The position numbers were made by a program. From the NCBI RefSeq assembly GCF_030013205.1, contig NZ_CP122648.1: a stretch of DNA of 64,000 bases; one strand, written 5' to 3'. This document shows positions 13,101 through 16,100 of the stretch, piece after piece; the stretch's first letter is position 1, and each line of letters opens with the position of its first letter. The stretch comes from Escherichia coli (lineage in GTDB: Bacteria; Pseudomonadota; Gammaproteobacteria; Enterobacterales; Enterobacteriaceae).

Positions 13101-16100
13101 CAATGCCGTCACGAGCCAAAGCTTCAATCATTGCGTCATCAGCACGATGAGCAATGTTGTATTCGTTCTGCACACAGACGATTTCGGCAATCTTGCGCGC
13201 CTCTGCAACCTGCGTCGGTGTGACGTTGCTCAGGCCAATATGTTTTACCAGGCCTTGTTGTTGCATCTCTGCCAGCACGGTCAGGCTGGCTTCAATCGAT
13301 CCTTCCGCCGGGCCATGACCATCCCCCATCATGACGCGCAGGTTAACCACATCCAGTACGTCCAGGCCGAGATTACGTAGATTATCGTGTACCGCTTTTT
13401 GCAGCTCTGCCGGAGAAAATGCGGGCAACCAGGAAGCATCCTCACCACGCCGTGCACCAATTTTAGTGACAATTGTCAGCTCGTCAGAGTAAGGATGTAG
13501 CGCTTCGCGGATAATCTGATTGGTGACGTGCGGACCATAAAAGTCGCTGGTATCAATATGATTGACGCCCAATGCCAGCGCCTCGCGCAGCACGGTTATA
13601 GCAACGTGGCGATCTCTTGGGGGGCCAAAAACCCCAGGGCCTGCCAGTTGCATCGCGCCATAACCAAGACGGTTAACGGATTTTGTACCGAGAGTAAATG
13701 TGTTGCTGCTCATCGCACCCTGCCCTGTAATAAAACGGATTAAGAAAAATCAGTATAGAAACGAAAAGAGATAAATAATGCGAAGGCGTAAACAAGATTA
13801 CTGGATGAGTTGCTCTATTGTCCTTGAAGACACCAAAACAAAACGCCTAAAGCATCGCATCCGGCAATAAAAAACCGCAACCTGTATCAGCATTGCGGTT
13901 TAGGTATCACATGCTAAAAATTAGAACGTCCAGCATCAGGACGTTACTGTTTCGGACGCAGATCCTCATCAAATACCAGACGCTGCCTGCCAGGTTCAAC
14001 TTCCCGCAATGGCTCGACTTGATGCAACGTCTGCTTACAGCGTGTCACCAGCACCTGATACTCATGCGTGCCCTGCTTTTTCCATGCCAGCTCCTGCTCA
14101 CTAAGTTCACGAATCGCTTTCGCCGGGCTGCCGACAATCAGGTAATTAGCAGGCATTTCTGCTTTGGCTTTCACAAATGCGGATGCACCCACAATACTGT
14201 TCTCACCAATCACCGCACCGTCCATCACTACCGCATTCATTCCCACTAATGCATTGCGGCGGATAATGCAGCCGTGAAGGATAGCGCTATGACCAATATG
14301 CCCGTCTTCTTCCACGACAGTATCCTGATCGGGAAAACCGTGCATAACGCAATTATCCTGAATGTTCGCGCCATCTTTCACCACGATACGACCAAAATCG
14401 CCACGCAGGCTGGCATTTGGCCCAACGTAAACGCCCTTGCCGAGAATAACATCGCCGATCAATACCGCTGTCGGATGGACAAAACTCTCTTCTGGTACAA
14501 CCGGAGTCAGACCGTCTATCTGGTAAATTGGCATAACGCCTCCTGTTCAATGTTCAAACCGCCAAAACGTTGAAAATACAGGCTTCCCGGCGCAGGCAGT
14601 TCACCGACCGAGGTTTCACCTTTTTCACTAACGAACGCTAAAGCAGCAGGCGCTACGCGCTGATAAATGTTGATACACAACTGACGCGCCGTATGCCCTG
14701 CCCAGTGTGCCGGAAGCAACTCCTCCGGCAACATTGGGTCTTTAAGGACGACACGGCGATAAAAATGGATCAGTAAAAGCTGAATATGAAATGCACGCTC
14801 CGGGGTTAATTCGTCTGCCGCCTCTTTTAACAGCGGCACCAGCGGGCGGAATGACTGAATAAAGGTTTCGTACATGGCATTTTGTTCAGTTAAATGCCAG
14901 CACTCTTCTACTCTGGCACGCAGTGCTGCGCGAGAAAGCGCCAGTGGTATTTGCGCTTCAAAACAAATCACGTTATCCGCCACACCCGCTTCATGCAAAA
15001 GTGTCTGTACATCGGCCAGTTTTTGCGACGGCGATGCCATCAGGCTGGGTGCCAGTGCGCCAAAACCTTGCCAGATCAACTGCTTTTTGACATCAGCCAG
15101 CGTTGATTTATCTAAACCTTCCGAGAGCAACAGGAGCCATTTACCATCCCATGCAGGTTGCTCTGCGCGATAAATTTTACTTTCTGCCCGTCGCGTCAGG
15201 CGCAAGCCTTTATCACTGAGGCTATAGAAACTGCGTCGCCCGATGCGGGAAACATCCAGCCAGCCTTCTTTATTAAGACGAAACAAAGCGGTGCGCACGA
15301 AACGCTCACCAAATCCCAGCCCTTCCAGCAAAGCAGCCAGACTACCCAGCCAGATTTCACCACCACGATGGGAAAGCGAATCACCATACAGAGAGGAGAT
15401 CAAAGATGTGCCACTGACCGGAACAGCGTTTACAGCATGTTGGATAAAAGTATCAAGTTTACTCATTCGATTCAGTCTGTTGTTATTGTTGTAATTTATG
15501 AATCATAGCACAGGTCGTATCGACTTCTGGCCCTGGCGCTTTACCTCACCAGGGCCAGACGACACGTCAGGCACCAACAATATTGCGCAGATCAAACACC
15601 CGACACGCCTTGCCTTCTGAACGCGGGATACTGCCACAGTTAACGATCATCACATCGGTAGAGATCCCCACCATCGACTTAATCCGATGGCGCAGCTGGT
15701 GGCATACCTGGCAACGCTGCTCATGCGTCAATGTCAGGCTACTTTCTTTCAACTCCACTTTCACAGAAAGTGAATCAAGATGCCCCCGGCGGTTCACCTC
15801 CAGTTGGTAATGCGGCGATAAATGTTCGAATTTGACAATCTCTTCTTCCAGTTGTGACGGGAAGACATTTACACCGCGAATGATCAACATGTCATCGCTG
15901 CGTCCGCTGATGCGATCCATGCGGCGCATAGTCCGCGCCGTTCCTGGTAACAGTCGGGTTAAATCACGCGTGCGGTAACGAATGACCGGCAATGCTTCTT
16001 TGGTCAGCGTGGTGAATAACAGTTCGCCATGTTCACCATCGGCAAGCGGTGTGCCGTCATGAGGATTAACAATTTCAGGATAGAAATGATCTTCCCAAAT

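What the first reader, a model, noticed from the sequence alone, without database searches (positions are those of the whole stretch)
13714..13943. ydbC abuts paaY directly; the ydbA/IS2/IS30 block recalled from K-12 is absent
As I recall K-12, a large disrupted autotransporter gene (ydbA) interrupted by IS2 and IS30 lies between ydbC and the paa cluster. Here only 230 bp separate ydbC and paaY, containing a REP-like fragment (GCCTAAAGCATCGCATCCGGCA) and a bidirectional terminator. This could be the ancestral empty state or a clean deletion; the REP-like remnant hints at REP-mediated rearrangement.
Basis: partly seen in the sequence, partly recalled or inferred. Interest (0 to 1): 0.3.

Follow-up and report, generated by a model that had tools for sequence, protein, structure and literature searches.

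The report
Old, common deletion of ydbA adhesin gene
This pig E. coli strain lacks the large ydbA adhesin gene that K-12 carries between paaY and ydbC (pdxI), because it inherited an old deletion found in about 38% of complete E. coli genomes, which is an ordinary and already described gene-content difference.

Summary
paaY (13944-14534, -) and ydbC/pdxI (12853-13713, -) lie 230 bp apart. K-12 has 9,159 bp there: ynbG plus ydbA broken by IS2D and IS30C.

This is a deletion, not an ancestral empty site.
- The gap keeps the last 18 nt of the ydbA reading frame, stop codon included (13921-13938), followed by ydbA's own terminator.
- Pseudocitrobacter faecalis has paaX-paaY-ydbA homolog-pdxI.
- A strain I take to be phylogroup B2 keeps a paaY 3' stub next to ydbA.

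The same junction, ungapped, is in 2,043 of 5,426 complete E. coli genomes. About 2,940 others carry ydbA, and their homology always starts at the same base. So this is one old event, since spread among lineages.

The REP-like piece is a truncated REP about 55 nt from the nearest breakpoint. It is also present in ydbA-bearing genomes, and K-12 has the same truncation, so it did not mediate the deletion. Nothing at the junction points to an IS element, a tRNA or attachment-site repeats. Illegitimate recombination is the likeliest cause.

The "bidirectional terminator" has a good U-tract only on the strand that both genes are read from. No ydbA exists elsewhere on the closest matching chromosome.

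The heterogeneity of this region is already published (PMC4951805). Low interest.

The parts
13944..14534 (-). paaY, last gene of the paaXY unit. Its stop codon TAA is at 13944-13946.
   Evidence: ORF. TIGR02287 PaaY 376 bits, above the 319.6 cut-off. RefSeq annotation of the closest matching genome, K_EC180, agrees.
12853..13713 (-). pdxI (= ydbC), an aldo-keto reductase, read in the same direction as paaY.
   Evidence: ORF. NF007695 556 bits. Annotated pdxI.
13714..13943 (.). The 230-bp paaY-pdxI spacer that stands in for the 9,159 bp of K-12.
13939..13942 (-). Four junction bases (GTCC) with no counterpart at either K-12 breakpoint. C13943 is still shared with K-12 (TAAC). They are filler or sequence diverged beyond recognition, and are identical in all seven deletion alleles aligned.
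13921..13938 (-). Remnant of the ydbA 3' end: TGATGCTG-GACGTTCTAA. Intact ydbA reads TGATGCTGAAC[TTCAAGAAAAC]GTTCTAA, so an 11-nt internal loss lies between AAC repeats. Continuous homology with every ydbA-bearing genome sampled starts at 13929 (ACGTTCTAA, the last two codons plus the stop).
   Evidence: The chance of the 8-9 nt upstream match is 0.0005-0.003.
13925..13945 (-). Perfect 7-bp hairpin AACGTCC-TGATGCT-GGACGTT, built from the paaY stop, the filler and the ydbA remnant. It is perfect in three of the seven alleles aligned (window, ampC0069, Combat13F7); the other four carry GAACGTT, GAATGTT or GAACATT in the 3' arm.
   Evidence: (-10.5 kcal/mol, z -1.7).
13866..13901 (-). Intrinsic terminator inherited from ydbA: stem 13872-13880/13893-13901, then UUUUUUAUU on the minus strand. 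It is now the first good terminator after paaY.
   Evidence: (-14 kcal/mol). It sits directly downstream of the ydbA stop in K-12, PEC011, O157 and E138.
13845..13866 (-). Truncated, decayed REP element: head GCCGGATGCGATG at 13853-13865, 3' arm missing.
   Evidence: head. (no partner arm). (an intact REP at 45745-45787 for comparison). (E138 and O157 keep 11-12 more bases of the 3' arm; K-12 has the same truncation).
13714..13800 (-). Conserved pdxI 5' region, almost invariant across all structural alleles. It has a -10-like TATACT at 13752-13757. Its role as the pdxI promoter is inferred only.
   Evidence: Invariant columns in alignment A1. Partly conserved in E. albertii. The simple sigma-70 scan found no full promoter match.

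Best explanation
The 230-bp spacer is the scar of an old deletion that removed almost all of the ydbA autotransporter gene (BigA/YdbA family). The deletion also took ydbA's AT-rich upstream region, the small gene ynbG and paaY's own terminator.

The left breakpoint lies 1 nt after the paaY stop codon. The right breakpoint lies about 30 nt before the end of ydbA. What remains is 18 nt of the ydbA tail, including its stop codon, then ydbA's terminator, a decayed REP and the pdxI upstream region.

The event happened once. The allele has since been inherited and moved between E. coli lineages by homologous recombination. It is now in about 38% of complete genomes.

The breakpoints share at most 3 nt (TAA), and no mobile-element sequence is present. 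The inferred cause is therefore illegitimate recombination (microhomology or replication slippage). The extra 11-nt loss between AAC repeats looks like slippage too.

The inferred consequence is threefold: the strain lacks this adhesin, paaXY transcripts now end at the former ydbA terminator, and pdxI keeps its own upstream region.
For: Shown by tool results:
- K-12 has paaY-ynbG-ydbA(IS2D, IS30C)-pdxI.
- Window homology to K-12 stops 1 nt after the paaY stop and resumes at ACGTTCTAA, the last 9 nt of ydbA.
- MAFFT aligns TGATGCTG-(11-nt gap)-GACGTTCTAA to the ydbA tail in four E. coli ydbA alleles. The Pseudocitrobacter ydbA tail is near-identical by direct comparison. The chance of the upstream match is about 0.001-0.003.
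- The C-terminus GVMLN(F/V)KKTF* is conserved between genera. It therefore belongs to the gene, not to a pre-existing intergenic site.
- Pseudocitrobacter faecalis has paaX-paaY-BigA/YdbA homolog-pdxI.
- Strain E138 has ydbL-feaR stub-paaY stub-ydbA-pdxI, with a paaY-ydbA spacer homologous to that of K-12.
- A 76-nt junction probe matches over at least 80% of its length in 2,043 of 5,426 genomes at 92-100% identity. All 36 evenly sampled full-coverage rows span exactly 76 nt in a single piece.
- Seven deletion alleles share the same filler and the same 11-nt gap, yet differ at 5 sites within the junction, all in the ydbA remnant. This fits an old neutral scar.
- About 2,940 genomes have the ydbA-type right junction (4,984 minus 2,043). 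Homology starts at the same base in all 35 sampled rows.
- No ydbA is found in the window or elsewhere on the K_EC180-type chromosomes. A chimeric probe gave 1 place in those 18 genomes, against 2 places in the 40 listed genomes at 98.9% ydbD identity, which serve as ydbA-bearing controls.
- No tRNA, no long direct repeats and no IS2/IS30 sequence.

Inferred: the recombination mechanism, and the terminator takeover (fold energies and U-tract).
Against: - The four bases GTCC at the junction have no clear source, so the exact breakpoints and mechanism cannot be reconstructed.
- Only one outgroup genus with the occupied arrangement was recovered.
- E. albertii has ydbL directly next to pdxI, with neither paa nor ydbA. 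It does not help to polarise the change.
- Terminator and promoter functions are predictions only.
Confidence: 0.88

Rival explanations
1. Ancestral empty site: paaY and pdxI were originally adjacent, and ydbA with its upstream region was inserted later in the K-12 lineage and others.
For: ydbA and its upstream region are hypervariable and AT-rich at the 5' end, which looks island-like. E. albertii lacks ydbA. 38% of E. coli genomes lack it.
Against: The 'empty' allele contains the last two codons and stop of ydbA, plus 8-9 further nt of its tail, in register with ydbA's terminator. That C-terminus is conserved across genera. The occupied order is found in Pseudocitrobacter, in K-12 and in E138, with homologous paaY-ydbA spacers in the last two.
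Confidence: 0.03
2. REP-mediated rearrangement: recombination at or between REP elements removed ydbA.
For: A REP head (GCCGGATGCGATG) lies in the spacer. Pseudocitrobacter has intact REPs right after ydbA.
Against: The REP fragment starts about 55 nt beyond the right breakpoint and about 75 nt from the left one. It is in the same position in ydbA-bearing genomes, with the same truncation in K-12 and PEC011. No REP is present at the left breakpoint after paaY in K-12 or E138.
Confidence: 0.03
3. IS-mediated adjacent deletion: an IS inside or beside ydbA (as in K-12) caused the deletion and was then lost.
For: ydbA is a frequent IS target. IS2 and IS30 sit in K-12. IS3 and IS1 are seen in other strains.
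Against: No IS sequence or IS end is at the junction, and the K-12 block including both IS elements gives no hit in the window. IS-adjacent deletions normally keep the IS. The K-12 insertions are not shared by other strains, which have an uninterrupted ydbA (PMC4951805).
Confidence: 0.07
4. Recurrent independent deletions at a hotspot produce the same adjacency in different lineages.
For: The allele occurs in strains of many serotypes and hosts. This region has at least five structural alleles.
Against: All seven aligned alleles share the same odd filler GTCC and the same 11-nt gap. All 36 sampled junction hits are ungapped 76-nt matches. The window's right flank is 100% identical over 266 nt to a ydbA-bearing, paa-less lineage. 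That shows the allele moves by recombination.
Confidence: 0.04

Closest known systems
The heterogeneous region between ydbL and ynbC of E. coli (fea-tynA-paa-ydbA), described in Sci Rep 2016;6:30115 (PMC4951805)
   Same: Same locus and same kind of gene-content polymorphism. That paper reports full-length ydbA in about 42% of phylogroup A genomes, and paa genes gained or lost as a block between the core genes ydbH/ynbE/ydbL and ynbC/ynbD.
   Different: In the passages retrieved, the paper works at gene presence/absence level. The base-level junction, the ydbA tail remnant and the single origin are worked out here. They are refinements, not a new phenomenon.
K-12 MG1655 ydbA pseudogene (b4492), interrupted by IS2D and IS30C
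   Same: Same chromosomal slot between paaY and pdxI. The 208 bp from the ydbA stop to pdxI are shared at about 95% identity.
   Different: K-12 inactivated ydbA by two IS insertions and keeps the whole gene body, ynbG and the native paaY terminator. The window lost all of these in one deletion.
Microhomology-mediated (illegitimate) deletion of non-essential surface-protein genes in enterobacteria
   Same: Several kb lost with at most 3 nt of shared sequence at the ends, a few filler bases, and no mobile-element signature.
   Different: The mechanism is inferred from the scar only. The pre-deletion allele of the donor lineage is not available.
REP / BIME extragenic palindromes
   Same: The head motif GCCGGATGCG(A/G)(C/T)G is present, downstream of a terminator as is usual for REPs.
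   Different: The 3' arm is missing, so no palindrome can form. It is a decayed passenger, not an actor in the rearrangement.

Membership tests
REP (repetitive extragenic palindrome) element | Conserved head motif GCC(G/T)GATGCG(G/A)(C/T)G | tested here: met
   13853-13865 (-) matches with 0 mismatches. 4 matches in the window against 0.98 expected.
REP (repetitive extragenic palindrome) element | An imperfect palindrome of about 35 nt, with a complementary 3' arm (...CTTATCCGGCC) | tested here: not met
   No inverted partner found. Compared with the intact REP at 45745-45787 and the longer E138/O157 versions, 11-12 nt of the 3' arm are deleted.
REP-mediated rearrangement | REP copies at the breakpoints | tested here: not met
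   Breakpoints are at 13943/13939 and 13938. The REP head is at 13853-13865 and is shared with ydbA-bearing genomes.
Bidirectional intrinsic terminator | GC-rich stem-loop | tested here: met
   9-bp perfect arms at 13872-13880/13893-13901. -14 kcal/mol on the minus strand.
Bidirectional intrinsic terminator | A U-tract after the stem on both strands, between convergent genes | tested here: not met
   The minus strand has UUUUUUAUU. The plus strand has only UUUAGGU. paaY and pdxI are co-directional.
Site-specific genomic-island excision | Attachment-site direct repeats, an integrase, and often a tRNA target | tested here: not met
   No direct repeat flanks the junction. No tRNA within 10000-18000. 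The K-12 block encodes only IS2/IS30 transposases, inside ydbA.
IS-mediated adjacent deletion | An IS copy or IS terminus at the junction | tested here: not met
   The K-12 block, including IS2D and IS30C, gives no blastn hit in the window. The junction bases are paaY, filler and ydbA tail.
BigA/YdbA autotransporter gene (remnant) | Sequence continuous with the conserved C-terminal codons ...GVMLNFKKTF* and the gene's own terminator | tested here: met
   ACGTTCTAA plus TGATGCTG, in register with the terminator. Family assignment of the intact homolog: NF033178 auto_BigA, 1454 bits, below its 3400-bit cut-off. RefSeq names it 'BigA/YdbA N-terminal beta-barrel domain-containing protein'.
BigA/YdbA autotransporter gene (functional copy) | An open reading frame encoding passenger and beta-barrel domains | tested here: not met
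   No tblastn hit better than E = 1 in the window. No beta-barrel DNA elsewhere on K_EC180-type chromosomes.

The most novel reading that the evidence does not exclude
The ydbA-minus scar is one very old allele kept alongside ydbA-plus alleles across E. coli lineages. On this reading it is a long-lived presence/absence polymorphism of a surface adhesin, exchanged as a cassette by recombination in the ydbL and pdxI flanks, and perhaps maintained by balancing selection from the host or phages. In some lineages the junction remnant has also become a perfect hairpin directly after the paaY stop, which could add a second terminator for paaXY.
Probability: 0.2. Interest if true: 0.25.

Novelty: already known. 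Interest (0 to 1): 0.08.

Why it matters
It matters little. It shows that K-12 is not the reference state for this locus. It also gives a base-level marker, the 26-nt junction, that separates the ydbA-deleted allele from ydbA-bearing ones in E. coli genomes. For annotation, the terminator after paaY in such strains is the former ydbA terminator, and the REP-like piece is a decayed passenger. No new mechanism or element is involved.

Tried and rejected
- Rfam scan of 13500-14200 at E <= 1 found nothing.
- The sigma-70 promoter scan found no site in 13600-14050, so the pdxI promoter stays inferred.
- ORFs of 20 aa or more in the gap are all short, overlapping frames, and I did not pursue them as genes.
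It returned mostly distant proteobacterial aldo-keto reductases. Only E. albertii, Pseudocitrobacter and Kluyvera were useful, and no E. fergusonii or E. marmotae came back.
- In Kluyvera, Enterobacter and Serratia, no paaY or ydbA lies within 10 kb of the pdxI homolog, so they are uninformative.
- I looked for microhomology or a template for the GTCC filler. Only TAA is shared by both breakpoints. GTCC does occur 17 nt after the paaY stop in K-12, but a 4-mer there is expected by chance about 1 time in 10, so I rejected it as evidence.
- A fold-back (quasipalindrome) origin of the junction hairpin was considered and cannot be tested.
- My first position-by-position comparison of the window with K_EC180 gave 9,519 mismatches. 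This was a one-base offset in my coordinates plus 1-nt indels. BLAST shows 99.99% identity.

Full report
**What is in the window**

The window matches pig E. coli chromosomes. Seventeen genomes, among them K_EC180, O139:H1 strains and pig ETEC, are 100% identical over a 1,682-nt probe. K_EC180 is 99.99% identical over all 64 kb.

On the minus strand the order is paaX (14516-15466), paaY (13944-14534) and pdxI, the current name of ydbC (12853-13713), followed by ydbD. The paaY-pdxI gap, 13714-13943, is 230 bp.

**Checking the K-12 recollection**

In MG1655 the order is paaY, ynbG, ydbA, pdxI. ydbA is a pseudogene in three fragments, split by IS2D and IS30C. There are 9,159 bp between paaY and pdxI.

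Window homology to K-12 ends 1 nt after the paaY stop (TAAC). It resumes at ACGTTCTAATTTTTAGC, which is the last two codons and the stop of ydbA, followed by its downstream sequence. The K-12 block missing here is 8,942 bp, or 6,383 bp without the two IS elements and their target duplications. It gives no blastn hit in the window, and three intact YdbA proteins give no tblastn hit better than E = 1.

**Deletion or ancestral empty site**

Three independent lines say deletion.

1. *A remnant of the gene survives.* The gap retains ACGTTCTAA from the ydbA ORF. Just upstream it retains TGATGCTG, which MAFFT aligns to the ydbA tail ...GGCGTGATGCTGAAC[TTCAAGAAAAC]GTTCTAA with a single 11-nt gap.
   - The consensus of other deletion alleles, TGATGCTGAACGTTCTAA, matches the ydbA tail perfectly apart from that gap.
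   - An 8-9 nt exact match of the junction bases within the last 51 nt of ydbA has a probability of about 0.0005-0.003.
   - The C-terminus GVMLN(F/V)KKTF* is conserved in E. coli and Pseudocitrobacter proteins. These bases therefore belong to the gene, not to an older intergenic site.
2. *An outgroup has the occupied arrangement.* Pseudocitrobacter faecalis has paaX, paaY, a 1,982-aa BigA/YdbA homolog and pdxI in the same order and orientation.
3. *A divergent E. coli lineage had paaY next to ydbA.* Strain E138, which I take to be phylogroup B2, has ydbL, a feaR 3' stub fused to a paaY 3' stub, then ydbA and pdxI. Its paaY-ydbA spacer is homologous to that of K-12, including paaY's own terminator. 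So paaY-ydbA adjacency predates the split of those lineages.

E. albertii has ydbL directly next to pdxI, with neither paa nor ydbA. It does not help to polarise the change.

**One event or many**

- A 76-nt probe across the junction matches over at least 80% of its length in 2,043 of 5,426 complete genomes, at 92-100% identity. All 36 full-coverage rows sampled evenly down the ranking span exactly 76 nt in one piece.
- This agrees with the 2,034 genomes in which paaY and pdxI are covered in one place.
- Seven aligned deletion alleles share the same left end, the same unexplained GTCC and the same 11-nt gap. They differ at five sites within the junction, all in the ydbA remnant, as expected for an old neutral scar.
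- About 2,940 further genomes (4,984 minus 2,043) carry the ydbA-type right junction. In all 35 sampled rows their homology starts at the same base, window 13929.

The allele therefore arose once.

It has also moved by recombination. The window's right flank is 100% identical over 266 nt to strain PEC011. By ydbD it is closest, at 98.9%, to strains such as FDAARGOS_1370. Those strains are ydbL-ydbA-pdxI and lack fea/paa altogether.

At least five structural alleles exist between ydbL and pdxI. This matches the published description of the interval as a region of heterogeneity, with full-length ydbA in about 42% of phylogroup A (PMC4951805).

**ydbA elsewhere in the genome**

I used a chimeric probe: 1.8 kb of the lineage-specific ydbD joined to 1 kb of the ydbA beta-barrel region in the opposite orientation. 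It gave one place (ydbD only) in K_EC180 and all 17 close relatives. It gave two places in the 40 listed genomes at 98.9% ydbD identity, which serve as the ydbA-bearing controls. At blastn sensitivity there is no second ydbA copy on those chromosomes.

**Anatomy of the 230 bp, read on the minus strand**

- paaY stop: 13946-13944.
- C, still shared with K-12: 13943.
- Filler GTCC: 13942-13939.
- ydbA tail remnant: 13938-13921.
- Junction hairpin AACGTCC/GGACGTT, 13945-13925: -10.5 kcal/mol, not exceptional against shuffles. It is a perfect 7-bp stem in three of the seven alleles aligned, including the window's.
- ydbA's terminator: stem 13901-13872 followed by UUUUUUAUU, -14 kcal/mol.
- REP fragment: 13866-13845.
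- pdxI upstream region: almost invariant across alleles.

In K-12, paaY has its own 13-bp-stem terminator just after its stop codon. That terminator is gone here. By inference, the former ydbA terminator now ends paaXY transcripts. On the plus strand the hairpin is followed only by UUUAGG, and no gene converges on it. 'Bidirectional' is not supported.

**The REP idea**

The fragment matches the REP head consensus but has lost its 3' arm. E138 and O157 keep 11-12 more bases of that arm, while K-12, which has ydbA, shows the same truncation. The fragment starts about 55 nt from the nearer breakpoint. It is a decayed passenger downstream of ydbA and played no visible part in the deletion.

**Mechanism**

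The breakpoints share at most TAA, and four filler bases are present. There is no IS sequence, no tRNA and no attachment-like repeat. Illegitimate recombination is the best inference, and the 11-nt loss between AAC repeats looks like slippage. This step is inferred, not shown.

**Verdict**

The state is a derived, old and very common deletion allele of a known variable locus. It is ordinary and already described at gene-content level, so the interest is low.

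Noticed in passing
window 13714-13929 compared with L083 (PEC011) 10001-10266 and L094 (FDAARGOS_1370): From the ydbA stop onward, the window's pdxI-side flank is 100% identical to strains that carry ydbA but lack the whole fea/tynA/paa block. Other deletion alleles differ from the window by 4-7% here. The locus is therefore a recombinant mosaic, with a crossover close to the junction.
   Followed up: partly
L085 (E. coli E138) 500-1078 and 10229-11740: This strain has a separate deletion that fuses the 3' end of feaR to the last ~340 nt of paaY, removing feaB, tynA and paaZ to paaX. It also lacks ydbD-ynbABCD, so pdxI is followed directly by azoR.
   Followed up: partly
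L084 (O157:H7 F7386) 3558-10009; L083 3204-10009: O157:H7 and PEC011-type strains have ydbL-ydbA-pdxI with no fea/paa genes. Their ydbA upstream regions are unrelated to that of K-12 and to each other. In O157:H7, ydbA is annotated as two ORFs (probably split).
   Followed up: partly
L003 (E. albertii NBRC 107761) 4787-5523: E. albertii has ldhA-ydbH-ynbE-ydbL directly followed by pdxI. The fea, paa and ydbA genes and the ydbA terminator are all absent, and only the ~60 nt proximal to pdxI are conserved with E. coli.
   Followed up: partly
RefSeq annotation under hits H52, H56, H160 and others: Several RefSeq genomes label the 2,867-aa ydbA autotransporter 'EntS/YbdA MFS transporter'. This looks like a ydbA/ybdA name mix-up propagated by annotation.
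   Followed up: no
L083: NZ_JBRAXZ010000002.1 'plasmid pPEC011-1', 517 kb: A record labelled as a plasmid carries core chromosomal genes (ldhA, ydbH, hrpA, azoR). It is probably a chromosome fragment mislabelled in the assembly.
   Followed up: no
window 1-701 (ydcF), 5735-7026 (ynbD), 42885-44018 (ompN), 50992-53469 (MFS/HlyD pair): In the near-identical K_EC180 record these genes are annotated as frameshifted or carrying an internal stop. The window differs from K_EC180 by a few 1-nt indels, so some of these may be homopolymer sequencing errors rather than real pseudogenes.
   Followed up: no
window 41900-42597: An IS1 copy sits between nifJ (ydbK) and ompN.
   Followed up: no
window 44159-45704: uspF and ttcA are adjacent. 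From memory, K-12 has the Rac prophage next to ttcA, so this would be a second K-12-specific block absent here. I did not check this with tools.
   Followed up: no
window 45745-45787 (-): An intact REP element (TGCCGGATGCGACGCTGGCCGCGTCTTATCCGGCCT) lies between ttcA and dbpA. I used it only as a reference for the truncated one.
   Followed up: partly
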